Shown: positions 4,028 through 42,292 of the stretch, piece after piece
Position numbering within the stretch: position 1 is the first letter of the stretch
How the letters are laid out: the number at the start of each line of letters is the position of its first letter
NCBI GenBank assembly: GCA_963760615.1
Contig: CAVXDX010000008.1
Span: 97,459 to 161,458, forward strand
Reading direction: 5' to 3'
Source: an uncultured Candidatus Micrarchaeota archaeon
Lineage (GTDB): Archaea; Micrarchaeota; Micrarchaeia; Burarchaeales; Fermentimicrarchaeaceae
Length of the DNA stretch: 64,000 bases
Program-made: the position numbers and the translations under genes
The notes under the pieces: generated by a model
What the model was told of the DNA's origin: nothing
Database searches by the model: none
The model's input: only the letters and a program-made list of their open reading frames with translations

Positions 4028-4085
4028 GCTTGAATTCTTATCCTCTAAGAATATTAACCTTTACTGTATTGGTTCCGATGCTGGT

Positions 4086-4125
4086 TTTAAATATTGAGAA
4101 TGAGCAATTTATGTGGTGATGTTTA
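4086..4125 (+). promoter_or_regulatory. second conserved promoter/5' block (TATA-N3-AAATGAGCAAATTT..GGTG.TG.TTATGG)
   Basis: GGTTTTAAATATTGAGAATGAGCAATTTATGTGGTGATGTTTACG here; GGTTTAAATACAGAAAATGAGCAAATTTAGATGGTGGTGTTTATGG at 5390-5435; weaker copy at 36346-36395. Confidence 0.55.
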
Positions 4126-4550
4126 CGCCAGTAAAGGAGAAAAAGCCAGAACAAGCGGACGAAGTGATGAAAGGAAAGACCGAAAAAGTTGGAGAAGTAA
4201 TGAAGGGAAAGCCCGAAAAGGTCGGAGAAGTGATGAAGAAGGAAAAGCCTCACTTTGCAGAAGCTATGAAGCGAATACGGGAGGAGGAGAAAGGAAAAGA
4301 AGCTGCACCAAAAACATTTTCTGAAGTCATGAAGAGAAGACTGGAAGAAGAGTCGGCCATATCTAAAAGGAGGCAGAAAAGAGAGAGTGAAGAAAGACTA
4401 ATAGCGCAGGAAAGGGAGAGGAAGCGCAGGGAAGTTCCGGAAGATGATAGGCATGACGGGGCTAGGAGAAGACAGGAACGTGAGAAGGAAGCAGACCGTA
4501 TAGAGCGAGAAAGAGCAATCAGGCGCGGGAAACGTGAAACTGAAGTTTGA
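4113..4550 (+). CDS. lysine/glutamate-rich repeat protein (EVMKGK-EKVG repeats)
   Basis: 145 aa, GTG start; about five EVMK(G/K)K-EKVG repeats then an R/E-rich tail; shares a promoter and 5' block with the gene at 5417. Confidence 0.5.
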   Translation: MVMFTPVKEKKPEQADEVMKGKTEKVGEVMKGKPEKVGEVMKKEKPHFAEAMKRIREEEKGKEAAPKTFSEVMKRRLEEESAISKRRQKRESEERLIAQERERKRREVPEDDRHDGARRRQEREKEADRIERERAIRRGKRETEV

Positions 4551-5349: not shown

Positions 5350-5416
5350 ACGAGGATTTTTTCACTCTGCACATTTATTAATGTAAGGTTTAAATACAGA
5401 AAATGAGCAAATTTAG

Positions 5417-5989
5417 ATGGTGGTGTTTATGGAAAAAGTTAAAGTTGATGGCAAAAGCACCATGAAGCTTGTAGAATTCGACACTATCAAGGTTGCAAGA
5501 GAAAAGGTGCCCAGCCAAGTGCTTGATGTTACGATGGAAAAGAAGGGTGAGATAGTCAGGAGAGGCAAGCTTTTTTTTGATATCCCTTCTCGAACTGACA
5601 AGCTGCGCCTTGACCTTGATATAGGATCTGGATGGGAATCTAACCTGACTATACTTTTCAATGCAAAACTCGAGAAGGGAGTGGATACGCCACAGAAATC
5701 ACCGCCTACCCTTTTAGAAGTTAAAATTGCAAGCCAGATGCCTACGCTGAGTATGGCTAGAAAACTTTTGGAGGAAGAACCAACGAATGCGCCTAAGGTC
5801 CCTGTTGTGAAGCTGGAATTGGTGAATATAGCCGGCGTTGGAACACACTCCAAATACTTTGACCTTGAAATTGGGAAAATAAAAACAAAGCTCGAGGACG
5901 CCATGAATAATACTCCGGAAGGGCGGGAACTGGTAATGACATTTGAATCTAGGCGTTCCGAGCTAAAACGAGCTGGAATACTGCACTAA
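5417..5989 (+). CDS. hypothetical protein
   Basis: 190-aa ORF; N-terminus MVVFMEKVKV and upstream 45 nt closely match the gene at 4113. Confidence 0.5.
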   Translation: MVVFMEKVKVDGKSTMKLVEFDTIKVAREKVPSQVLDVTMEKKGEIVRRGKLFFDIPSRTDKLRLDLDIGSGWESNLTILFNAKLEKGVDTPQKSPPTLLEVKIASQMPTLSMARKLLEEEPTNAPKVPVVKLELVNIAGVGTHSKYFDLEIGKIKTKLEDAMNNTPEGRELVMTFESRRSELKRAGILH

Positions 5990-6140
5990 ACATTTATTTT
6001 TAATTCTAGTTCTAACGTGCAGGGAGATTAGAAAGAACCGCAAGGTTCCTCTCCTGAGCCAATATTAACCTTTCCAGTTCCGGCACATCTCGCACAAGAA
6101 ACAGCACTTTCATCTCGGGCATAAGCAATACCGGTGAAAA

Positions 6141-6299
6141 CAGTGATTTCACCTCGGCAGTAAATCACTGGTAAATCGCCATAAAACTCGGTAAATCCCT
6201 CTTTCTCGCAAGCGTATAAATTACGTCGGGTAAATGCGGTAAATCCGCTCGCGTTGCGGAAAGGTCTGCCGTCGGAGTGATGGCAGTAGCGGATTTACT
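6141..6299. repeat. GTAAATC iteron-like repeat array in a 340-bp intergenic region
   Basis: GTAAATC(C/G) at about 6162, 6171, 6191, 6230, 6239 plus inverted AGCGGATTTAC at 6288; GGTGAAA-N7-TTTCACC inverted repeat at 6133-6153. Confidence 0.5.
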
Positions 6300-6329
6300 T
6301 TTCAGGAAGCTCCGGGTATTCCAGCAGGA

Positions 6330-7193
6330 CTACCTTCGGGATATTCCCAAGCTTGTCGATTGCTCTTTCTTCAGCATCTTCGAGTTGAAATGGTCGTAAA
6401 TCCTTATCACAGTGTCTGCTGCCGAAGCGACCACCTGTTCATACTCCTCCCTGCTTATCTCGCACTTTTCATCTACTCTGTGCGGAAGGTGGAACACGAA
6501 CCCTTCTAGGGCTACCTCGTAATGCTCATACAGCTCCTTGGCTATTGTCTTGTCGTCAGGATAGTCAAATCTTCGCAGAGATGCCCTAAGCTTGTCAATC
6601 CTTCTCAGAGGCTCGGCTCCAGGTGAACTCTGCCAAAGAGTTACATTAATGCCGGGTATTTTCAAATACTCCTCAAAGACTTCCTTTGAGTCTGCTTCGA
6701 CGTAAACAATTGGGTTGCTTTTCAGCTCGGTAGGCTTCGAGTTGCTGTAAACTAAATAAGGAGCATGTGTTGCTGGGCTGTAGTGTATGTCTACAATGAC
6801 GCTTGCACGCTCATCCCTTGCAGTTCCTAGCATTTCATTGTAAACTAGCAGATTATCGAAATTCTCCTTTTTGAAGAGCCTGTCCTGTTTCCTCATGCCG
6901 TAATCCTTTCCTGTTTTCATCCAGTGCAGGTCTATGACATCAGATGCATGCGTAAACGATTTCAGTTCGCAGACCTTTATGTCCCTCTCACCCTTGATTT
7001 TTTGAATTCGTTTCGCAACATCTTCCGTGAACTGCCTCTCAGGAGTGTGGGCGCCCCATGTCACGAGCATCGTTATGTATCTCCTTGCTTCCCCGACGTC
7101 CTGCGCGGCTTTCTCGAATTCTTTCTTATTCAGAATAGTCTTTATAGGTACGCTCCCCTCACCAGTCTCTGCGGTTTTGTGAATTCCATCCAT
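6330..7193 (-). CDS. hypothetical protein (cassette-promoter family member A)
   Basis: 287-aa ORF; start preceded by the conserved cassette CATGCCTGAATTATGCC...TATTTAAA. Confidence 0.5.
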   Translation of the reverse strand: MDGIHKTAETGEGSVPIKTILNKKEFEKAAQDVGEARRYITMLVTWGAHTPERQFTEDVAKRIQKIKGERDIKVCELKSFTHASDVIDLHWMKTGKDYGMRKQDRLFKKENFDNLLVYNEMLGTARDERASVIVDIHYSPATHAPYLVYSNSKPTELKSNPIVYVEADSKEVFEEYLKIPGINVTLWQSSPGAEPLRRIDKLRASLRRFDYPDDKTIAKELYEHYEVALEGFVFHLPHRVDEKCEISREEYEQVVASAADTVIRIYDHFNSKMLKKEQSTSLGISRR

Positions 7194-7268
7194 GCCTGAA
7201 TTATGCCTTTTCTTCTATTTAAACCCTAGAGAAGTCTATAAAGATTGTTATAAGGTAACTCCGGGAAC

Positions 7269-8279
7269 CTATCGCTCGACCAGCTCAACCCTCAAAAGTT
7301 TATTTTTTATGAACGAGTCCAAACGATCGGAAAGCTCACCTCCCAATCCGCTCGAGCTCATCCCAGACATTTTCAGCTCCTCTTGAAGCTTCCAATCTTC
7401 TAAATGCCCCCGCCCTCCATTTGCCCGGTCCAGCTCCACAATCAGCTTTTCTATCTCTCCCAGCCCTCCCTCCCTCTCGAATACTATTTCGTGCCATTTA
7501 GCTTCAAAAATTCTGGATGCTTCCTCAGGAGTTATAAAGCCCCTCTGGTCTATCCTATGCTCGATTTCAATAAACGCTTCCCCTATGATGGAAGGAAGCT
7601 TGCGTATTTCAGCATCAAATTCCGCCCTCTTCCCGCGTTCATACTTTATTCTTGTCATTTTCAGCGACTCCTTCTTCGGAGGTGATTCCAGCAAATGTAT
7701 GTCGGTCAGCTGCCCCAGGCTTATCCCCTGGTCCTCCAGATTCTTTACATTTGTGGAGATGGTATCCAGTCGGGTCTTGTTGACGAACTTTACTATATCC
7801 GCCATGGGGATCCGCGTCTCTTCCTTCAGCATGTTTATTATATCCCTTTCAACCTCATCAAGAAAACTGCTGAATTCCGCAGGCGCTTTTGTCAGGAGGC
7901 CCTGCCGGGCGTACTCCGCTGGGTTCCTCCCTCGCGTTTCCAGAGCCATTATGTTAGCCTCAAGGTTAATCGGGGTTGCCCCTAGGAGCGACAGCGAGGG
8001 AATGGAGCATATCTTGTGCCTATCAAAAATCTGCATATTCTTCTCAATCTTATCCATTGAAGCGTGCTTTAGAAGGTTGCTTATGCCCTCAACGGAAGCA
8101 CTCTCCACTCTGCTTTTTATTATCCGGATAGTCTCCCTGTCTCCCTTCGGGCGGCTGTCTGCTAAGGCCTTTGCATCACCCCAGCGCATGTAAAGGTCTC
8201 TCATCAGCCATTTTTCAAACTCCCCTCTGCTCATAAGCCTGGTATCCTTCCCTTCAGTTTTGACCTGCTCGGCGCACAT
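7269..8279 (-). CDS. hypothetical protein (cassette-promoter family member B)
   Basis: 336-aa ORF; cassette at 8280-8312; 14-bp palindrome at 8350-8363. Confidence 0.5.
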   Translation of the reverse strand: MCAEQVKTEGKDTRLMSRGEFEKWLMRDLYMRWGDAKALADSRPKGDRETIRIIKSRVESASVEGISNLLKHASMDKIEKNMQIFDRHKICSIPSLSLLGATPINLEANIMALETRGRNPAEYARQGLLTKAPAEFSSFLDEVERDIINMLKEETRIPMADIVKFVNKTRLDTISTNVKNLEDQGISLGQLTDIHLLESPPKKESLKMTRIKYERGKRAEFDAEIRKLPSIIGEAFIEIEHRIDQRGFITPEEASRIFEAKWHEIVFEREGGLGEIEKLIVELDRANGGRGHLEDWKLQEELKMSGMSSSGLGGELSDRLDSFIKNKLLRVELVER

Positions 8280-8349
8280 GGTTAGATTATGGCTTTTTCG
8301 ATATTTAAGCTTGTTCGATTAACACCGGCAAATCGTAACTTTCGGTTAT

Positions 8350-8363
8350 GTAACCATGGTTAC
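8350..8363. promoter_or_regulatory. perfect 14-bp palindrome GTAACCATGGTTAC upstream of ORF 7269..8279
   Basis: Exact palindrome; identical copy at 11628-11641. Confidence 0.6.
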
Positions 8364-8373
8364 ATCTAACCTC

Positions 8374-9426
8374 TCAACCCATCTTATCAGGAAGCTTCGG
8401 TGCCTTCCTTATCAGCTCGTCAATGTCGGTTATGCCTGTCTTAAACTTCTCCAGGCTTACCCCATACATCTTCACTTCCTTCTGGCCCACCACAACAAGA
8501 TTAGCCTCCTCTATTCCTAGAAACAAGCCCCTCGCTTTGCATCTCTTTTCAAAATCATCCAATCTCTCTTTACCAACTATTGCCTGCAATGTGTAATAAT
8601 CCCTGAAACCCTCGCTGTATCTCCTTGCCTTGCCTGCTTCGTCCCTCCATACGTCAAAATTCAAATATTTATCCTGAGGGTGATCATAGTCCCCCATCCC
8701 ATGTTTATGTTTATAAAATGCAGGGAGAGGAGTTGCTATTTTATCCATAAAACTTATAGCATAAAACGCCCTGACAAATGCATCCTTGCTGCTGAGCAAT
8801 TCAGTCTCGGCGAAAGTGGCTTTGCCTTCGCTGTACCTCTGCATAGCCCTCCGCAGCCTTTTTGCATCCTCACCCCCAGTACGGAATTTATGTAAATCCT
8901 CCCAAAAAAGAGCCAGCCTACGGGCACTTTCATCACGTATATGGTCCATCTCGTGCAATATTGCTCCAATCGACGAAATGGCGGATTCCTGCGCGTAATA
9001 CAGCACTCGGGTGCCGTCCTTCTCACGGCTTCCATGCCAATCTCCGTCATAAGATTTGAGTATTCTCAAACCTTGAGTTTCCATCCCATGATTTTTCTTT
9101 ACATACTCAAGTACCTGCATAAAGTGATCCCTTGACTGGATTGAGAGGGGCAAATTGTTCTCTTCAGCAAAGTGGTTATCAAGATACCGAACTAGCGGGC
9201 TGTTGCCTAACCGGAACATTCTGCCTGCCTTTATAGTCTCGCTGTATCTGTACGGATCCTTTATTTCCTTCAGCCTCTCTCTCGCCCAGTCTCCCATCCA
9301 CGCCTTTACTTCCTTTTGTTTCTCCAATGTGCCCAGCGCCTCATCAGCTATCTTCCAGCATTTTTCATAGAGTCCCTTGGCTTCTTCGCTTAAAACCAGC
9401 TCGCTTGACTTTGTAGCTGTTACCAT
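8374..9426 (-). CDS. HExxH zincin-like putative metallopeptidase (family member C)
   Basis: 350 aa; HEMDH followed 12 residues later by W, as in ORFs 10639..11589 and 45159..46139; cassette promoter. Confidence 0.5.
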   Translation of the reverse strand: MVTATKSSELVLSEEAKGLYEKCWKIADEALGTLEKQKEVKAWMGDWARERLKEIKDPYRYSETIKAGRMFRLGNSPLVRYLDNHFAEENNLPLSIQSRDHFMQVLEYVKKNHGMETQGLRILKSYDGDWHGSREKDGTRVLYYAQESAISSIGAILHEMDHIRDESARRLALFWEDLHKFRTGGEDAKRLRRAMQRYSEGKATFAETELLSSKDAFVRAFYAISFMDKIATPLPAFYKHKHGMGDYDHPQDKYLNFDVWRDEAGKARRYSEGFRDYYTLQAIVGKERLDDFEKRCKARGLFLGIEEANLVVVGQKEVKMYGVSLEKFKTGITDIDELIRKAPKLPDKMG

Positions 9427-9566
9427 GCCTAAATTATGCCTCTTTTGATATATTAAGATTACTTTGGAAGTTGGAATCTGAACTCAAAAGTAACTGCCCG
9501 CCCTTGGCATCCTGAACTGAAATGTTAATGCCCAGCTGTAGCTTTGAACTGAAATAGTCAAGAACC

Positions 9567-9701
9567 TTAATATACTCCTGAATAACAGACCACCTTTTTT
9601 ATCTTTCTAGTTCCAACCGTTCCGTCAGGAAGAATAAATGCCTTATATCTAGCCCTTCGCTTCTTTTCCCGCTTATAAATGCAACCTCTTGGAGCTTTCA
9701 T
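9567..9701 (-). CDS. small basic protein (44 aa)
   Basis: Not in the ORF track (under 60 aa); AGGTGGT Shine-Dalgarno 5 nt before ATG; MKAPRGCIYKREKKRRARYKAF...; co-directional downstream of the CxxCxxCC gene. Confidence 0.3.
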   Translation of the reverse strand: MKAPRGCIYKREKKRRARYKAFILPDGTVGTRKIKKVVCYSGVY

Positions 9702-9764
9702 TTATACCACCTCTATTTTTTAACTTCTTTTTTTGTTAATTCATCTTTTTGTTTCGTCATGATT

Positions 9765-10196
9765 TCACTCCCACAATTTTTTAATTACCTCATCAACAGT
9801 TATCGTTTCAAAAATTGGGCAGTCCTTTTTTTCAAAGTCTATTATCTTCTGTATCTTTTCCCTGTTCCATTTTTCTACTCCTCTGAATAAGTTATCTGGG
9901 CCGATAGCACAGAAATCAGGTCTTTCCTTATCCCAAACCGAGCAGTAATATTTTCCGTCTTTCATATATAGTTTAGCACACTCTTTTTTGAATGTTATCT
10001 GCTTCATGTCGAGTCCATCCCCAAATGTAAAAGGCGTGTCCTCTGTGATCTCTGTGATAATTGTATTATCGAGCATCCATCTAAACCTAAGTGCGGAGTC
10101 TAAAGTATCGTATAGAGTATATTCCTTGCAACACTTGGCACATCTTTGGCATATCTCCGAGTTTGCCAATTTGCTTTTGTTCCCGATTATTGTCAT
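9765..10196 (-). CDS. CxxCxxCC putative zinc/iron-chelating domain protein (YkgJ-like)
   Basis: 143 aa; CQRCAKCC motif plus additional Cys; start overlaps the TBP stop by 4 nt (ATGA). Confidence 0.55.
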   Translation of the reverse strand: MTIIGNKSKLANSEICQRCAKCCKEYTLYDTLDSALRFRWMLDNTIITEITEDTPFTFGDGLDMKQITFKKECAKLYMKDGKYYCSVWDKERPDFCAIGPDNLFRGVEKWNREKIQKIIDFEKKDCPIFETITVDEVIKKLWE

Positions 10197-10507
10197 CTGC
10201 TCACCTTCTTGGGGACTGGCAGAGGTTTTGTATGGGGAGCCAGTAGCTTTATCGCTCGCTCTAAGGCATACTTCACTTCTCTCTCATTCTTGCAGCCTGT
10301 GCATATTACCTTGCCGTTCTTGAAGAGCAGAAGAGATGCCTTTGGATCTTTGAACTTGAGTATTGCACCTGGGAACTGCTCTGGCTCATACTCCACATTC
10401 CTGATTTTGCTGGCAATAGTGTAAAGGTCAAGCTCCACTCCCAGATTGGCTGAAGCTACTATGTTCTCTATCTTGAACGATGGATCAATTGTAAGTTTCT
10501 TTGTCAA
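10193..10507 (-). CDS. single-repeat TATA-box-binding protein (one TBP domain only)
   Basis: 104 aa, TTG start; KIENIVASANLGVELDL...VEYEPEQFPGAI...DPKASLLLFKNGKVICTGCK is unmistakable TBP repeat sequence; no second repeat upstream or downstream. Confidence 0.7.
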   Translation of the reverse strand: MTKKLTIDPSFKIENIVASANLGVELDLYTIASKIRNVEYEPEQFPGAILKFKDPKASLLLFKNGKVICTGCKNEREVKYALERAIKLLAPHTKPLPVPKKVSR

Positions 10508-10638
10508 TGAAACACCTTCTCTGCCCCTTCCAGCCCATTTCTACTTAAAACCACCTGTTAGATGCCTCCCACCATACTCTCACTCATCAAATAGTTCTGT
10601 TCTGTAGTATATTAAGATTGCTTTGGCTTGAGAATAAG

Positions 10639-11589
10639 CTAAACCCTCCCTTCCTTCAGATCTCTCAGATACTCATCCGGATGATCTATGTGCCTCATGG
10701 TAAGAGGAGGATGTTTAATCGTGTATTTGATTGGGTTTTCCCCGGTTTTTTTCTCTATATACCCCAAGAACGCCATGCCCTTGGAATTTAGAGGTTGCTC
10801 CTCGTCCTCCTTAAGCAGTGTGGACTGTCTCATAGCCTTGTAGGAGTAACCAAATTTGCTTATAACCCGGTACCCGGCGTAGTATGCAATGCCCTCGTCG
10901 AAAGCTTGCCGGGCGTCAATCCCGTCTCTGACTATCTGCCATCTCGCCTCCATAGCTTCCTCATCCCCTGCTAGTTCAGAGTGGATTTTTACCTGCTCAC
11001 GTATGGAGTCTACAGACCAGTTCGCAACCTCAGGAATATTCTCCTTGATTGTTTGGTGCAGCTGCTCGTGGACAAAAGTGTTAAGGACAAGAAACCTCTC
11101 GATTCTCTTCCCTTCCTCGCTGTTTGGGCTGACTAGTTGCACTGCGCACTGCAGTCTAAACAGCTCTTCAATGTTGTCCCGCACAATATATGCGGTATTT
11201 TGCTCAGAGCTGAAAAAACCGGAAGTAGCTCTAAAAATGCTGGGCATATCGAAATCAACACCTTCCATTATCTCCCGTCTGAGCTCTTCGAGGAGAGTCT
11301 TATCGGACATGAACTTTTTGGATGTCGAGTAGAACTCTTCCTGCGTCATTTTCGTCGCTTCATCCCTGCTAATGAATTTTATGCTTATCTCGCCTTTTTT
11401 AAAACTCGTACTTACTTTCATCCCTGTTATGTCTTCGATACGTTTTGCAACTTGCATTATTTCGTATTTCGAAGGCACGTATAGCTCGGTTGGTGGAGAA
11501 GCAGATTCGCTATTAGTTTTATCTGCACCATGAAGTCTGATTATATGGTCCTTTATGTTCGTATCAGCTGATGGCTTAACAGTCCACAT
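10639..11589 (-). CDS. HExxH zincin-like putative metallopeptidase (family member D)
   Basis: 316 aa; HEQLH-x12-W and FDEGIAYYAGY (EGxAxY-like); cassette promoter at 11590-11622; palindrome at 11628-11641. Confidence 0.5.
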   Translation of the reverse strand: MWTVKPSADTNIKDHIIRLHGADKTNSESASPPTELYVPSKYEIMQVAKRIEDITGMKVSTSFKKGEISIKFISRDEATKMTQEEFYSTSKKFMSDKTLLEELRREIMEGVDFDMPSIFRATSGFFSSEQNTAYIVRDNIEELFRLQCAVQLVSPNSEEGKRIERFLVLNTFVHEQLHQTIKENIPEVANWSVDSIREQVKIHSELAGDEEAMEARWQIVRDGIDARQAFDEGIAYYAGYRVISKFGYSYKAMRQSTLLKEDEEQPLNSKGMAFLGYIEKKTGENPIKYTIKHPPLTMRHIDHPDEYLRDLKEGRV

Positions 11590-11622
11590 GCTGAGATTAT
11601 GCCTCTTTCAATATTTAAGCTT
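11590..11622 (-). promoter_or_regulatory. conserved promoter cassette (TATA + GGCATAATCTnRRC) directly preceding ATG
   Basis: Coding strand CTTAAATATTGAAAGAGGCATAATCTCAGC-ATG; near-identical at 7194-7232, 8280-8312, 9427-9462, 46140-46172; weaker at 13986-14020 and 30207-30243. Confidence 0.6.
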
Positions 11623-11627
11623 GCTTT

Positions 11628-11641
11628 GTAACCATGGTTAC
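11628..11641. promoter_or_regulatory. perfect 14-bp palindrome GTAACCATGGTTAC abutting the TATA box of ORF 10639..11589
   Basis: Exact palindrome 8 nt upstream of TATA (ATATTTAAG at 11611-11619). Confidence 0.6.
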
Positions 11642-11721
11642 ATTCTCCGCCAAATCTCATCTTCGCTTTGGTATTAGCCTGTTTCTCGGCAGATTTAAAT
11701 ATCAGAAATGGCGTAATTTAA

Positions 11722-12186
11722 GTGCTGAGATTTATGGTAACAACTGTGATGGATGAACCAAAAATGCGGGTAGAAATGCAAAGGAAATACTTTAAAGAAA
11801 AAGATTACAAAGTGGTAGAAGTTCCTAGAAGCAGGCTGGGTGAACTGTCCCACATATGGAGCCTGCTGCCAAGGATCGGGTATGACGAAGGCAAACCTCA
11901 GCCCAGTATGATTCCTGTCGGTTTTGTAAAAAAAGAAGACGAAAAATGGCATCTTTTGGGTGTAGTAAAGCATCAGGATGTATTGCATCATGTACCAGGA
12001 TCATCGGATTTGTTTGTAGAACCGCTAACAGGGAAATTAAGCATAACTCCAAAACCCCAAGACGATATAACACGAAATATGGTTGAGGTTCTTGTTGCAA
12101 GGCTTCCAGAGCCATTAAAAACCAAGCTGTATGAAGCAGCCCTAAAGCATGCGGATTTAGGCAGGGATATGTTCGTAAAGGATTAG
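11722..12186 (+). CDS. hypothetical protein
   Basis: 154-aa ORF. Confidence 0.4.
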   Translation: MLRFMVTTVMDEPKMRVEMQRKYFKEKDYKVVEVPRSRLGELSHIWSLLPRIGYDEGKPQPSMIPVGFVKKEDEKWHLLGVVKHQDVLHHVPGSSDLFVEPLTGKLSITPKPQDDITRNMVEVLVARLPEPLKTKLYEAALKHADLGRDMFVKD

Positions 12187-12198
12187 GACACCGCCAGA

Positions 12199-12756
12199 TT
12201 ACAGCTCTCCCTTCATCTTCTCAAGCAGAAAATCAAATCTAGTAAAGCCCGCTTCCTCGTTGATATGCCCCGCATTCTTCAGGATAATCAGTTCTGCTTT
12301 GAGGTTTTTTGCAAGATTTCTGCCCTGCTCAAGTGGTACATAGGGGTCGTTATCTGAGTTCATCACATAGAACTTTCCGCAGTTTCTCCTTATTTTATTC
12401 CAGTCGAACTGCTTTCCCACGAATGTTCCAATAAATTCATCAAACTCCGGGTTATCCAGAGGAGTTGTGAAACCTGCGACAAAAAAAGCCGCCTTAACAG
12501 GTTTATCCAGTCTTTCAATCACGCTAAGAAGGAATGCAACTCCCAGGCTGTGACCGACAACAATGGAGTTTTCCAGCTGAGGCTTATACTTTTCAAATGC
12601 ATCCAGCCAGTTCTGCAGCTTCGGGTCTTCGGGGTTGGGAAGCTGCGGGACAAGCACTCTGCAGCCCAGCTTCTTCAGCTCATTTTTAAGCCAAGGAAGC
12701 CAGTTCTCAGAGGGGCTTCCGCCAATGCCGTGTATAATGAAGACGTTAGTCATCAC
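12199..12756 (-). CDS. alpha/beta serine hydrolase (RBBP9/YdeN-like)
   Basis: 185 aa; IIHGIGGSP, GHSLG nucleophile elbow, late AGH catalytic His. Confidence 0.6.
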   Translation of the reverse strand: MMTNVFIIHGIGGSPSENWLPWLKNELKKLGCRVLVPQLPNPEDPKLQNWLDAFEKYKPQLENSIVVGHSLGVAFLLSVIERLDKPVKAAFFVAGFTTPLDNPEFDEFIGTFVGKQFDWNKIRRNCGKFYVMNSDNDPYVPLEQGRNLAKNLKAELIILKNAGHINEEAGFTRFDFLLEKMKGEL

Positions 12757-13769
12757 AAAACCTTGAAATCCACCACAACCTGCACAATTCCGGGAGCGAA
12801 AGGCCTCACTATCCTCTTCCCGATTATTTCCGCCTTTCTCCCGCTGAGCTTTGCTTCGCTTATGACAAGCCTCTCAGCATCCTCAAACGGGTTTTTCTCA
12901 GGGGCAAACTGGTATATGTGTATTACGCAGTTCTTCCTTGCCGCAAGGAAAGCTTCTGAAAGGAATTTCTCAGCCCCTTTTGGGAGAGGCATTAGAATCC
13001 TGTCCGCGGAATTCACAAATTTTTTCGGAATGATATCCTTAACATCTCCCAGTATGGGAGTTATCATCTCCTGCATCCTGTTCAGCCTTATGTTTTCTTG
13101 CATGTACTTGAATGCAACAGGATTCAGCTCTATTGCTTCAATTTTCACCCTCGGCTGCATTTTGGTAATCACTATGGGAAAGGGCCCCACTCCAGCAAAC
13201 ATTGCAAGGATTTTCTCTCCAGGCTTCACCTGTTCTGCAATTCTTTCCCTCTCGAAAGACAGCCTTGGGGTGAAGTAAACTTTCGCAACATCAAGCCGGA
13301 ACCTGCAGCCATTCTCCTTGTACTCCGCAACCGTCCTTTTCTCGCCTGCGAGGAACTTCAGCTTCCTTATCCTGTACACACCTTCCATGGGCCCGAGCTT
13401 CTTGTAGACTGATTTGACATTCCTGTGCACGCTGAGCAAAGAATCTGCAATGAGCTTCTCCTTTTTCTCAAGCTCCTTGGGAATTTCAACTATTGCAATA
13501 TCTCCGATAACATCGAAAGACTTCACTACCGAGTTGAGCTCTTCCGCTGTTAATTTACCTTTCAAGCTCTCCTCAAGCGAGAGGACTCGTGGGGCTCTTT
13601 TCTCAAGCTTCTTTTCAATGAGCTTGAAGCTCTTGAATCCGCCCTTCAGAGGGAAGTAAATTCCTGTTGGCTCAGCTTTGGGGGAATAACTGTTGTCAAG
13701 CAAGTTTAGCGAGATGAGCTCTTTTCTGACTCTCTCCGCGTCTTTTCTCTTAACGAGTATGCATTTCAT
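12753..13769 (-). CDS. trm5: tRNA (guanine37-N1)-methyltransferase Trm5 (Met-10+ family)
   Basis: 338 aa; DMFAGVGPF SAM-binding motif and overall Trm5/TYW2 architecture. Confidence 0.7.
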   Translation of the reverse strand: MKCILVKRKDAERVRKELISLNLLDNSYSPKAEPTGIYFPLKGGFKSFKLIEKKLEKRAPRVLSLEESLKGKLTAEELNSVVKSFDVIGDIAIVEIPKELEKKEKLIADSLLSVHRNVKSVYKKLGPMEGVYRIRKLKFLAGEKRTVAEYKENGCRFRLDVAKVYFTPRLSFERERIAEQVKPGEKILAMFAGVGPFPIVITKMQPRVKIEAIELNPVAFKYMQENIRLNRMQEMITPILGDVKDIIPKKFVNSADRILMPLPKGAEKFLSEAFLAARKNCVIHIYQFAPEKNPFEDAERLVISEAKLSGRKAEIIGKRIVRPFAPGIVQVVVDFKVL

Positions 13770-27329: not shown

Positions 27330-27345
27330 TGCAACCACGAAAGAG

Positions 27346-27435
27346 CGGGCCCGGCGGGATTTGAACCCGCGACTCCCTGGTTTCCTCATGCGAGTTTAAA
27401 AGCCAGGTACTCTGGCCAAGCTGAGTTACGGGCCC
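27346..27435 (-). tRNA. tRNA-Lys (anticodon TTT) with 15-nt canonical intron
   Basis: Acceptor GGGCCCG/CGGGCCC, anticodon stem CCTGG/CCAGG, loop CTTTTA|A interrupted after position 37 by AACTCGCATGAGGAA, T-arm GCGGG-TTCAAAT-CCCGC. Confidence 0.75.
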
Positions 27436-41182: not shown

Positions 41183-41268
41183 GCCCCGATAGCTCAGTCG
41201 GTAGAGCGACTGGCTGTTAGGCAATTGCGGATACCAGTAGGTCGTCGGTTCAAGTCCGACTCGGGGCG
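41183..41268 (+). tRNA. tRNA-Asn (anticodon GTT) with 13-nt intron
   Basis: Acceptor GCCCCGA/TCGGGGC, D-arm GCTC-AGTCGGTA-GAGC, anticodon stem ACTGG/CCAGT with loop CTGTTA|A interrupted by GGCAATTGCGGAT, T-arm GTCGG-TTCAAGT-CCGAC. Confidence 0.75.
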
Positions 41269-42292
41269 CTACGGATTTTACGACGGAGAATGGGGGGATC
41301 CGAATACAGAAAAACGACTTGAACCTCCGTCGTAGCGCGGGTGCGACTCCCACCGAGTCCATAAGTTTTTATGCCCTCCTTGCAAAAGATAATCTGCGGG
41401 TGGTAGAATGAGTTGGAGCAAACTAATATTTTTTATGATTATCTTGTCCGTAATTCTTATTCCGACAACTTCTGCTACTCCTGCTTTCTACTATGTTATC
41501 TGTAACGTAACCATTTCAAAAGGAGTCAATGTTAATCAGAGCAACATAACTGTCAACCAATGTTTTGGATATTCTCCTTACAGTTCAACTTGTGACATAT
41601 CAACATTGAAAGATAGAATTCATACTAATATGACTTATACCATTAACAATGAATTTACTAAAGGTTTTTCAGTCGATAACACATCATCCATCCAAGAAGG
41701 AAATTACATTATTAAGGGGGGGTTTTGGGGAGGATTTTCAAGCATACAAAAAATAACGGACAATAGAAGCTTGGATGCAATCGCCCAGGAAGACTGCAGT
41801 AACTATGCGATTAACTCTTTCATAAATTCTGGAGAGATCTACCTCTTCTCGCCATTAATTCTATGCGTAGCATTTGCATTCATAAAAAAACCATCAAAGA
41901 AAATTAAATTTTTGAGCATAGATTGGAGAAAGTTGAGTCTTTGCTTTTTGCTGATGTTCACGCTTTTTATGGGATTTGAGTTTTTTTCTCTTGTTCCGAC
42001 AATTATTCCTTTTCCTATCAATTATCTCATTATACCGTTTGGAATAATTGGTTTGATTTTAGCAATCCCCGCGTTCATTGTTATATCGTTGTTTAGCGGT
42101 CGATCGGTACCCTTGATCAGTGAACAGTACCCTTGCAGTATATGATATATTTTATAGCGTTTTTCGTATACCCGCTATTTCTCTCCTTGGGAATTTTTTA
42201 TCTTTATGACAATGTGAAAGCTGGGGGTTCGAATGCACGGAAACCATAAGAACCACCGACGTGGTTCTTATACAAGTCCGACTCGGGGCGCT
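41251..42292 (+). mobile_element. remnant integrated element at the tRNA-Asn 3' end, bounded by 20-bp direct repeats
   Basis: CAAGTCCGACTCGGGGCGCT at 41251-41270 (tRNA 3' end) repeated exactly at 42273-42292; the intervening ~1 kb is markedly AT-rich and has one ORF; no integrase present. Confidence 0.55.
41408..42145 (+). CDS. AT-rich secreted/membrane protein (cargo of the tRNA-Asn insertion)
   Basis: 245 aa; N-terminal signal peptide, many NxS/T sequons, C-terminal hydrophobic helices; codon usage far more AT-rich than flanking genes. Confidence 0.5.
   Translation: MSWSKLIFFMIILSVILIPTTSATPAFYYVICNVTISKGVNVNQSNITVNQCFGYSPYSSTCDISTLKDRIHTNMTYTINNEFTKGFSVDNTSSIQEGNYIIKGGFWGGFSSIQKITDNRSLDAIAQEDCSNYAINSFINSGEIYLFSPLILCVAFAFIKKPSKKIKFLSIDWRKLSLCFLLMFTLFMGFEFFSLVPTIIPFPINYLIIPFGIIGLILAIPAFIVISLFSGRSVPLISEQYPCSI

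What the first reader, a model, noticed from the sequence alone, without database searches (positions are those of the whole stretch)
6141..6299. Iteron-like GTAAATC array and inverted repeats in a 340-bp gene-free region
Five direct GTAAATC(C/G) copies spaced 9-40 nt apart and one inverted copy (AGCGGATTTAC) lie in this region. A GGTGAAA-N7-TTTCACC inverted repeat and TCCAGT/GTGAAAAC elements, faintly reminiscent of archaeal ORB cores, are also present. It is the longest ORF-free stretch in the window apart from 9427-9764. It could be a regulator binding array, a small RNA gene, or a replication/partition-related site, and it lies next to scpA/scpB.
Basis: seen in the sequence. Interest (0 to 1): 0.5.

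Follow-up and report, generated by a model that had tools for sequence, protein, structure and literature searches.

The report
Short-repeat cluster in strain-specific archaeal spacer
A real but strain-specific cluster of short (G)GTAAATC(C) repeats and hairpins sits in a non-coding spacer inside a recently acquired gene island of a Micrarchaeota (DPANN) archaeon; it looks like an orphaned regulatory and 3'-end region, not a replication origin or a chromosome-partition site.

Summary
The repeats exist and are far beyond chance. There are four exact direct GTAAATC copies, one GTAAATG and one inverted copy within 140 bp, which is the strongest 7-mer cluster in the 64-kb window. The 340-bp stretch has no credible ORF and no Rfam match.

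Synteny with six related Micrarchaeota genomes changes the context. Window ~5367-12198 is a ~6.8-kb island missing from the scpA-Trm5 interval of relatives, so the closeness to scpA/scpB is a strain-specific accident. Part of the spacer (6036-6106, minus strand) is an orphaned copy of the scpA-type promoter and leader, with GTT where the ATG should be. The inverted copy pairs with one direct copy in a strong hairpin (-30 kcal/mol, z -3.9) followed by T4.

The origin and partition readings do not hold up:
- no mini-ORB core (TTCC-N4-GAA);
- no AT-rich unwinding element;
- no Orc1/Cdc6 or Rep gene, and the neighbouring 287-aa protein has a zinc-amidase fold;
- no GC-skew turn near 6 kb;
- no copy of the array in any relative or public collection searched.

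My best reading is a multi-site operator-type protein-binding array plus a 3'-end hairpin beside orphan promoters (confidence about 0.35). A neutral recombination scar is a close rival. Interest is low.

The parts
5990..6329 (.). Non-coding spacer between the stop codons of two convergent genes: the 190-aa ORFan (5417-5989, +) and the 287-aa zinc-amidase-like gene (6330-7193, -).
   Evidence: ORF lists. No gene was called here in the public assembly. The 88-codon open frame (6294-6031, -) has 0 homologues among 1.84 billion representatives and a negative codon-usage score. No Rfam match.
5994..6006 (+). T-rich tract (TTTATTTTTAATT, with T5 at 5997-6001) just after the 190-aa stop codon. It is the likely archaeal oligo-T terminator of that gene.
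   Evidence: Sequence and T-run list. The terminator role is inferred from general knowledge of archaeal termination.
6036..6106 (-). Orphaned copy of the scpA-type promoter and leader. The BRE/TATA element GGAAAGGTTAATATT lies at 6074-6060. Twenty-two nt downstream, where relatives have the scpA ATG, the window has GTT followed by 8 codons and a stop.
   Evidence: blastn to the region directly upstream of scpA in L012, L014 and L010 gives 85-95% identity. Alignment A1. The 13-mer AAAGGTTAATATT is identical to the scpB promoter at 4062-4050. Promoter PWM score is 9.1, the 99th percentile of the coding background.
6133..6153 (.). Palindrome GGTGAAA-ACAGTGA-TTTCACC. It overlaps a second 9-nt inverted repeat (6141-6149 with 6162-6170) that includes the first GTAAATC copy.
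   Evidence: the repeat finder pairs I6 and I7. It is the only such palindrome in the window. Folding z-scores are only about -2.
6159..6178 (+). Repeat copies 1 and 2: AGTAAATCA (6159-6167) and GGTAAATCG (6170-6178). Together they form a near-tandem pair with an 11-nt period.
6190..6198 (+). Repeat copy 3, GGTAAATCC. It shares a 15-nt block, AAAnnCGGTAAATCC, with copy 5.
   Evidence: families D2, D3.
6209..6222 (+). Weak TATA-like box, CAAGCGTATAAATT. On the minus strand it reads AATTTATA. It lies between repeat copies 3 and 4.
   Evidence: Promoter PWM score 5.4, about the 90th percentile of the coding background. Its function is inferred only.
6229..6246 (+). Repeat copies 4 and 5: GGTAAATGC (6229-6237) and GGTAAATCC (6238-6246). 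They form a tandem 9-mer pair with one mismatch.
6238..6302 (.). Branched hairpin. The outer stem pairs 6238-6249 with 6288-6299 and contains the inverted repeat copy AGTAAATCC (6299-6291, - strand). The inner stem pairs 6266-6273 with 6279-6286. On the + strand it is followed by T4 (6299-6302). It starts 30 nt downstream of the stop codon of the 287-aa gene.
   Evidence: pair I1. Folding gives -30.1 kcal/mol with z -3.9 on the + strand, and -24.5 kcal/mol with z -4.2 on the - strand. T-run.

Best explanation
The 340-bp stretch is a lineage-specific non-coding spacer at the inner edge of a ~6.8-kb island. The island was inserted between scpA and the hydrolase/Trm5 genes of a Micrarchaeota (DPANN) genome. 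The spacer is a mosaic of four elements:
1. the oligo-T terminator of the 190-aa gene;
2. an orphaned copy of the scpA-type BRE/TATA promoter and leader that no longer precedes a start codon;
3. a strong hairpin followed by T4, 30 nt past the 287-aa gene, which most likely defines or insulates the 3' ends of the convergent transcripts;
4. a cluster of five direct and one inverted (G)GTAAATC(C) sites plus a GGTGAAA-N7-TTTCACC palindrome.

I read element 4 as a multi-site operator for a sequence-specific DNA-binding protein. The sites flank a weak TATA-like box and lie 85-230 bp upstream of the orphan promoter, so binding would repress or activate transcription starting within the spacer. That transcription would give non-coding or antisense RNA.

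Shown: the repeats, their statistics, the hairpin, the relic promoter, the island, and the lack of coding potential. Inferred: protein binding, the regulatory role, and the terminator role. The binding protein is unknown. The island encodes a 336-aa protein with a weak Lrp/AsnC-like winged-helix match and a one-repeat TBP.
For: The motif cluster is far beyond chance and is the strongest in the window.

Conservation is confined to a ~9-nt core with unrelated flanks, as expected for recognition sites rather than for decayed longer duplications. TRF finds no tandem array.

The direct copies fall in phase at a 10.0-bp period, with phases 0.0, 0.1, 0.1, 0.0 and 0.9.

The region is non-coding and matches no RNA family.

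A bona fide promoter-type element lies next to the array, and a weak TATA-like box lies inside it.

The hairpin is very stable and is followed by T4.

The island carries other clear operator-type sites. The palindrome GTAACCATGGTTAC occurs at 8350 and 11628. It recurs right after the 287-aa homologues in other genomes, and there it lies in the position that the spacer occupies in the window.

A wHTH protein with weak Lrp/AsnC similarity is encoded 1 kb away.
Against: There is no homologous copy of the array in any relative or collection, so there is no evidence of conservation or purifying selection.

The spacer lies between convergent gene ends, not upstream of a gene.

Two of the repeat pairs are near-tandem duplications with periods of 9 and 11 nt, and some copies share flank blocks (families D3 and D5). 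That pattern is what slippage and neutral duplication would also give.

At a 10.5-bp period the phasing breaks down.

The only strong promoter in the spacer has no ORF behind it.

No binding protein has been identified, and there are no transcription data.
Confidence: 0.35

Rival explanations
1. Neutral recombination scar. The spacer is leftover DNA at the junction of two insertions, and the repeats arose by local slippage or duplication. On this view it has no function beyond incidental terminators.
For: The spacer is strain-specific, being absent from all relatives. It contains a displaced promoter with no gene behind it. In other genomes the same position after the 287-aa homologue holds an operator, a promoter and a further gene, all missing here. 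Near-tandem 9-nt and 11-nt duplications and shared flank blocks are present. Both flanking small genes, the 190-aa and the 336-aa, are ORFans.
Against: The core is kept exact in four copies while the flanks are unrelated. TRF detects no tandem structure. A 340-bp idle spacer would be unusual in what should be a compact genome; the only complete relative found is 1.18 Mb, and genome compactness as such was not measured here. The hairpin is much more stable than shuffled controls.
Confidence: 0.3
2. An RNA-level element. One option is the structured 3' UTR of the 287-aa mRNA (minus strand: one GUAAAUCC followed by five GAUUUAC partners that can pair with it in alternative ways). The other is a ~55-60-nt hairpin sRNA on the + strand, starting about 22 nt after the TATA-like box at 6209-6222 and ending at T4 6299-6302.
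For: Folding z-scores are -3.3 to -4.2 on both strands. The hairpin is followed by T4 on the + strand. The first T4 on the minus strand comes only ~145 nt after the 287-aa stop, so that mRNA would probably run through the repeats. A weak + strand promoter match is present.
Against: There is no Rfam match even at E up to 10. There is no C/D-box layout. By eye, the hairpin's internal loop has only one nucleotide on its 3' side and no ACA follows the lower stem, so it is not H/ACA-like. The promoter score of 5.4 is within the coding background. Any inverted repeat gives low folding energy on both strands. No homologues exist to test covariation.
Confidence: 0.2
3. A replication origin, plasmid-type iteron array or centromere-like partition site, possibly linked to ScpA/ScpB.
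For: Direct repeats of one short motif with an inverted copy and palindromes resemble iterons in form. The spacer lies ~650 bp from scpA.
Against: The mini-ORB core TTCC-N4-GAA (PMC1904270) is absent, and its window-wide count equals chance. No stretch is strongly AT-rich; the maximum is 0.72 AT, at the 190-aa gene's 3' end and terminator tract. My scan of ORFs over 150 aa for the P-loop motif G-x4-G-K-[ST] found only two translation GTPases and no Orc1/Cdc6-like ORF. No Rep, PHROG or PADLOC hits were found in the island. The adjacent 287-aa protein has a zinc-amidase fold. Cumulative GC skew does not turn at 6 kb. scpA adjacency is created by a strain-specific insertion, and relatives' scpA loci have no such repeats. 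There is no similarity to plasmids or phages.
Confidence: 0.04
4. A missed small protein gene or pseudogene on the minus strand. The candidates are the 88-codon open frame with a CxxCxGxG-like motif, and a 48-aa ORF disrupted by the 11-bp GATTTACCAGT duplication.
For: An open frame of 88 codons runs from 6294 to 6031. There is a weak NCBIfam hit to anti-TRAP, E 0.019. Removing one 11-nt repeat would join the ATG at 6183 to that frame (sequence inspection).
Against: The exhaustive HMMER search found 0 homologues. Codon usage is -0.20 bits per codon, against +0.25 to +0.57 for real genes. The 'zinc-finger' part coincides with the non-coding scpA promoter of relatives. There is no canonical start codon for the long frame. 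Gene callers call nothing here.
Confidence: 0.03

Closest known systems
Multi-site operator or upstream arrays of archaeal transcription factors, such as Lrp/AsnC-family regulators (for example FL11, consensus TGAAA-N3-TTTCA, or Ss-LrpB). The comparison rests on my own knowledge of these families.
   Same: Several short recognition-size motifs, both direct and inverted, lie within ~150 bp. They are roughly helically phased and sit around a TATA-like box and upstream of a BRE/TATA promoter. A TGAAA...TTTCA palindrome is present. A protein with weak Lrp/AsnC-type HTH similarity is encoded in the same island.
   Different: No regulated gene follows the promoter. The palindrome spacer is 7 nt rather than 3. 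The main motif GGTAAATCC is a direct repeat, not a dyad. No binding has been shown, and the array is not conserved anywhere.
Plasmid iterons (Rep-binding direct repeats)
   Same: Multiple direct copies of one motif, plus an inverted copy, in a non-coding stretch.
   Different: Iterons are typically longer (about 17-22 bp, from my own knowledge), regularly spaced, and adjacent to a rep gene and an AT-rich region. Here the core is 7-9 bp, the spacing is irregular (9-39 nt), no rep gene is present and no AT-rich region is found.
Archaeal ORB / mini-ORB origin repeats bound by Orc1/Cdc6 (PMC1904270)
   Same: Short repeats and inverted repeats in an intergenic region, with isolated hexamers (TCCAGT, GTGAAAAC) that recall parts of the 13-nt mini-ORB.
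   Different: The conserved TTCC...GAA core is absent. No orc1/cdc6 gene is adjacent. There is no unwinding element and no skew signal.
Hairpin 3'-end elements between convergent genes
   Same: A very stable hairpin lies 30 nt after a stop codon, is followed by T4 on one strand, and sits between two convergent genes.
   Different: Archaeal termination mainly uses oligo-T without a hairpin (my own knowledge). The hairpin has a 38-nt branched interior, and it explains only two of the six repeat copies.

Membership tests
Archaeal oriC (ORB / mini-ORB) | Repeats carrying the conserved mini-ORB core motifs TTCC and GAA, as in TTCCAGTGGAACT (PMC1904270) | tested here: not met
   TTCCNNNNGAA has 12 matches in the window against 14.4 expected, and none in 5990-6329. 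The 13-mer gives only one 3-mismatch hit at 6129, which is chance level.
Archaeal oriC (ORB / mini-ORB) | An adjacent orc1/cdc6 initiator gene | tested here: not met
   Neighbouring genes have no such Pfam or NCBIfam hits. My scan of ORFs over 150 aa for the P-loop motif G-x4-G-K-[ST] found only two translation GTPases.
Archaeal oriC (ORB / mini-ORB) | An AT-rich unwinding element and a GC-skew inflection | tested here: not met
   AT content in 40-nt windows is 0.38-0.60 across the array, and 0.72 only at the 190-aa gene's 3' end and terminator tract. Cumulative skew is monotonic through 6 kb.
Plasmid/viral iteron origin | An adjacent Rep initiator gene within a mobile replicon | tested here: not met
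   [not shown]
Plasmid/viral iteron origin | Regularly spaced direct repeats of about 17-22 bp | tested here: not met
   The conserved core is only ~9 nt and spacings are 11, 20, 39 and 9 nt. TRF finds no array.
Centromere / SMC-ScpAB loading site | Conserved association with the scpA/scpB locus | tested here: not met
   In L010, L030 and L013 the scpA upstream neighbour is the hydrolase/Trm5 gene with no island between them, and L011, L012 and L014 carry only a single unrelated gene there. None of the 24 scpA loci has a GTAAATC cluster.
Transcription-factor operator array | A cluster of recognition-size motifs beyond chance, with conservation limited to the core | tested here: met
Transcription-factor operator array | Position relative to a promoter of a regulated gene | tested here: inconclusive
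   The array lies upstream of a strong promoter-type element at 6061-6072 (-) that has no ORF behind it, and it flanks a weak TATA-like box at 6209-6222.
Transcription-factor operator array | Demonstrated binding by a cognate regulator | not testable with these tools
   This needs EMSA, DAP-seq or ChIP. The candidate proteins are only weakly characterised.
Known non-coding RNA families (Rfam 15), including C/D-box sRNA | A match to a covariance model, or a C box (RUGAUGA) followed by a D box (CUGA) at sRNA spacing | tested here: not met
   There is no Rfam hit at gathering score or at E up to 10. There is no C-to-D arrangement on either strand.
Protein-coding gene | Homologues, genome-typical codon usage and a start codon | tested here: not met
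   0 hits among 1.84 billion representatives. Codon score is -0.20 bits per codon. The 88-codon frame has no ATG, GTG or TTG at its head.

The most novel reading that the evidence does not exclude
The array is a functional binding platform for an island-encoded, lineage-specific DNA-binding protein. One form of this reading notes that the minus-strand motif GGATTTACC looks like the first half of this genome's BRE/TATA element (RGATTTAAATA) and that the island encodes a one-repeat 'half' TBP. The repeats could then be half-TATA decoy or recruitment sites that control an orphan promoter or an antisense RNA. An alternative form is that the array is the origin of a cryptic integrated replicon in a DPANN archaeon.
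Probability: 0.07. Interest if true: 0.55.

Novelty: new member of a known kind. Interest (0 to 1): 0.2.

Why it matters
It matters little on present evidence. The feature occurs in one uncultured Micrarchaeota genome and has no relatives, so it cannot yet inform any general question. It would matter modestly if the repeats proved to be the operator of an island-encoded regulator, because cis-regulatory logic in DPANN archaea is almost unstudied. The surrounding island is the more interesting object. Its genes share one promoter block, it carries a conserved GTAACCNNGGTTAC operator found in several genomes, and it encodes a one-repeat TBP.

Tried and rejected
1. Known RNA families. The Rfam gathering scan of the whole window and an E<=10 scan of 5850-6500 gave nothing relevant. 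ARAGORN found no tRNA here.

2. Small protein. The 88-codon frame had no Pfam hit and only a weak anti-TRAP hit. It had 0 homologues in the exhaustive search and a negative codon score.

3. GNAT pseudogene remnant. This was suggested by C-terminal GNAT-like fusions in homologue P0002 and by the GNAT-like gene upstream of scpA in L011. tblastn and blastn gave only chance-level hits.

4. Comparative analysis through flanking genes.
   - The 287-aa protein has only 5 homologues, all with different downstream DNA.
   - The 190-aa and 336-aa proteins are ORFans.
   - L001 is identical to the window over 10,010 bp and probably comes from the same source, so it is not independent evidence.

5. Public-collection DNA scans.
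   - The triple-GGTAAATC pattern in viral contigs gave over 120 unrelated hits and is non-specific.
   - The hairpin-arm pattern gave 3 unrelated high-GC hits in metagenomes and none in viral contigs.
   - blastn against plasmids and phages gave only a 43-nt chance hit in Agrobacterium genes.

6. Flanking att-type direct repeats for the island were not found.

7. The AF2 model of the 190-aa ORFan is unusable, with pLDDT 36.

8. TRF found no tandem array. The sigma-70 and terminator consensus scan is not informative for an archaeon.

9. A literature search for the closest named relative turned up nothing on this locus.

Full report
**Observation.** The stretch 5990-6329 lies between the stop codons of two convergent ORFs: 5417-5989 (+, 190 aa) and 6330-7193 (-, 287 aa).

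- Exact GTAAATC occurs at 6160, 6171, 6191 and 6239 on the + strand and at 6292-6298 on the - strand.
- The extended core is (G)GTAAATC(C). When the six sites are aligned, information is confined to about nine positions and the flanks carry essentially none.
- Seventeen sites in the 64-kb window lie within one mismatch of GGTAAATCC, and six of them fall within 250 bp here. In 200 first-order Markov simulations no cluster exceeded three.
- In an unbiased scan this is the only 7-mer with five copies in 200 bp anywhere in the window.
- A seventh copy at 6396-6402 is inside the 287-aa gene. It encodes the conserved R-I-Y-D-H-F and is found at the same place in homologues, so it is a coding coincidence.
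- The inverted copy forms a perfect 11-nt inverted repeat with 6239-6249. GGTGAAA-N7-TTTCACC lies at 6133-6153.

**Not coding, and not a known RNA.**

- The longest open frame (6294-6031, minus strand, 88 codons) has no canonical start at its head. Its CxxCxGxG-like motif gives only a weak anti-TRAP hit.
- That frame has no homologue among 1.84 billion cluster representatives. Its codon-usage score is -0.20 bits per codon, against +0.25 to +0.57 for real genes in the window.
- Public gene calls leave the stretch empty.
- Rfam finds nothing at gathering thresholds or at E up to 10, and ARAGORN finds no tRNA. There is no C/D-box layout.

**Genomic context.**

- The window comes from a Micrarchaeota (DPANN) archaeon related to Candidatus Fermentimicrarchaeum limneticum. 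ScpA is 81-92% identical in six relatives.
- In relatives L010, L030 and L013 the hydrolase and/or Trm5-like genes (window 12199-13769) lie directly next to scpA (window 5349). Window ~5367-12198 is therefore a ~6.8-kb island specific to this genome.
- None of the 24 scpA loci fetched contains a GTAAATC cluster. The closeness to scpA/scpB is a by-product of the insertion and gives no support for a segregation-related role.

**A relic promoter inside the spacer.**

- Window 6036-6106 (minus strand) is 85-95% identical to the sequence immediately upstream of the scpA start codon in L012, L014 and L010.
- Its 13-mer AAAGGTTAATATT is identical to the scpB promoter in the window, at 4062-4050.
- I derived a promoter weight matrix from upstream regions in the window. 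Its consensus is AAGGTTTAAATA, ending about 22 nt before the ATG. It scores the relic at 9.1, the 99th percentile of the coding background and equal to the scpB promoter. This is the only strong promoter-type match in the spacer.
- Where relatives have the scpA ATG, the window has GTT followed by eight codons and a stop.
- The functional scpA promoter of the window, at 5350-5400, is of the type seen in L030 and L011.

The spacer therefore carries an orphaned promoter copy, which points to a history of insertion or recombination.

**Hairpins.**

- The segment 6236-6304 folds to -30.1 kcal/mol (z -3.9) on the + strand and -24.5 kcal/mol (z -4.2) on the - strand.
- The outer stem is made of repeat copy 5 and the inverted copy. 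T4 follows on the + strand at 6299-6302.
- The hairpin begins 30 nt after the 287-aa stop codon. On the minus strand the first T4 appears only ~145 nt after that stop, so this mRNA would probably run through the repeats.
- The 190-aa gene has its own T5 tract at 5997-6001.
- A 3'-end or insulating role for the hairpin between convergent genes is plausible but inferred.

**Test of the origin, iteron and partition reading.**

- Mini-ORBs share conserved TTCC and GAA core motifs, as in TTCCAGTGGAACT (PMC1904270). TTCC-N4-GAA occurs 12 times in the window against 14.4 expected, and never in the spacer. The 13-mer matches only at three mismatches, which is chance level.
- There is no AT-rich unwinding element.
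- There is no Orc1/Cdc6-like ORF; my scan for the P-loop motif G-x4-G-K-[ST] found only two translation GTPases.
- There is no GC-skew inflection near 6 kb.
- There are no Rep, integrase, PHROG or PADLOC hits in the island.
- There is no similarity to plasmid or phage records.

These readings are not supported.

**What remains.** The homologous gene clusters in other Micrarchaeota have a conserved palindrome, GTAACCNNGGTTAC, directly after the 287-aa homologue. In L007/L008, L156/L158 and L159 a promoter and another gene follow on the same strand. The window has two copies of this palindrome elsewhere in the island, at 8350 and 11628, but not at this position. The spacer occupies the position where relatives have an operator and a promoter. 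It contains only a weak TATA-like box at 6209-6222, with a PWM score of 5.4.

Several points favour recognition sites for a DNA-binding protein:
- the core is conserved while the flanks are unrelated;
- the direct copies are in phase at a 10-bp period;
- a dyad is present;
- promoter-type elements are close by.

The island encodes a 336-aa protein with a weak Lrp/AsnC-like winged helix and a one-repeat TBP, but neither can be linked to the motif with the tools at hand.

Other points are what a neutral scar would also show:
- the near-tandem pairs with 9-nt and 11-nt periods;
- blocks shared between some copies;
- the complete lack of homologues;
- the position between convergent gene ends.

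**Verdict.** The repeat cluster is real and unusual for this window, but it is confined to one genome. It sits in a mosaic spacer made of a terminator, an orphan promoter, a hairpin and short repeats, within a recently acquired island.

- My best reading is an operator-type binding array plus a 3'-end hairpin, at confidence 0.35.
- The rivals are a neutral scar (0.30), an RNA-level element (0.20), an origin or partition site (0.04) and a small protein gene (0.03).

Interest is low. The island's shared promoter block, conserved palindromic operator and half-size TBP deserve more follow-up than the spacer itself.

Noticed in passing
window 5367-12198: This ~6.8-kb segment is absent from the syntenic scpA to hydrolase/Trm5 interval of related Micrarchaeota genomes (L010, L030, L013). 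It is a strain-specific island with no integrase, no Rep, no flanking direct repeats and no PHROG or PADLOC hits.
   Followed up: partly
window 8349-8364 and 11627-11643; L002 6855; L003 2826; L007 4611; L008 1588; L156 2772; L157 5715; L158 2748; L159 235: The perfect palindrome TGTAACCATGGTTACA lies about 15-35 nt upstream of the TATA boxes of the 336-aa and 316-aa island genes. GTAACCNNGGTTAC recurs immediately after the stop codon of 287-aa homologues in several other Micrarchaeota genomes and is absent from 24 scpA loci. It is probably a conserved operator of this gene cluster.
   Followed up: partly
window 7189-7227, 8275-8313, 9422-9460, 11585-11623: Four island genes (287, 336, 350 and 316 aa) share a ~39-nt block made of a promoter and a 5' leader (TTAAATAT, about 21 nt, then ATG). 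This suggests co-regulation or promoter duplication.
   Followed up: partly
window 10193-10507 (-): A 104-aa protein consists of a single TBP repeat (PF00352, E 4e-30), that is, a half-size TATA-binding protein. It is encoded within the island next to a CxxCxxCC protein (9765-10196).
   Followed up: no
[not shown]
   Followed up: partly
window 8374-9426 (-) and 10639-11589 (-): Both hypothetical island proteins contain HExxH motifs (HEMDH and HEQLH) and have distant homologues in the related clusters (L002, L007). They may be zinc metalloproteases. This was seen in the sequence only.
   Followed up: no
It also carries the promoter of the 350-aa gene.
   Followed up: no
window 4050-4062 and 6061-6073; L010, L012 and L014 just upstream of scpA: The scpB promoter in the window and the scpA promoters in relatives share the element AAAGGTTAATATT. 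This suggests that the two kleisin-complex genes are co-regulated even though they are separate transcription units.
   Followed up: partly
window 4113-4550 (+): A 145-aa, highly charged ORF between scpB and scpA has internal GEVMKGK(T/P)EKV repeats. It has no family hit, and relatives have different DNA between scpA and scpB.
   Followed up: no
window 27345-27435 (-) and 41183-41269 (+): These tRNA genes appear to have introns. The Rfam alignment shows a 14-nt insertion in the anticodon loop of tRNA-Asn, and ARAGORN leaves the anticodon of the tRNA at 27345 undetermined.
   Followed up: no
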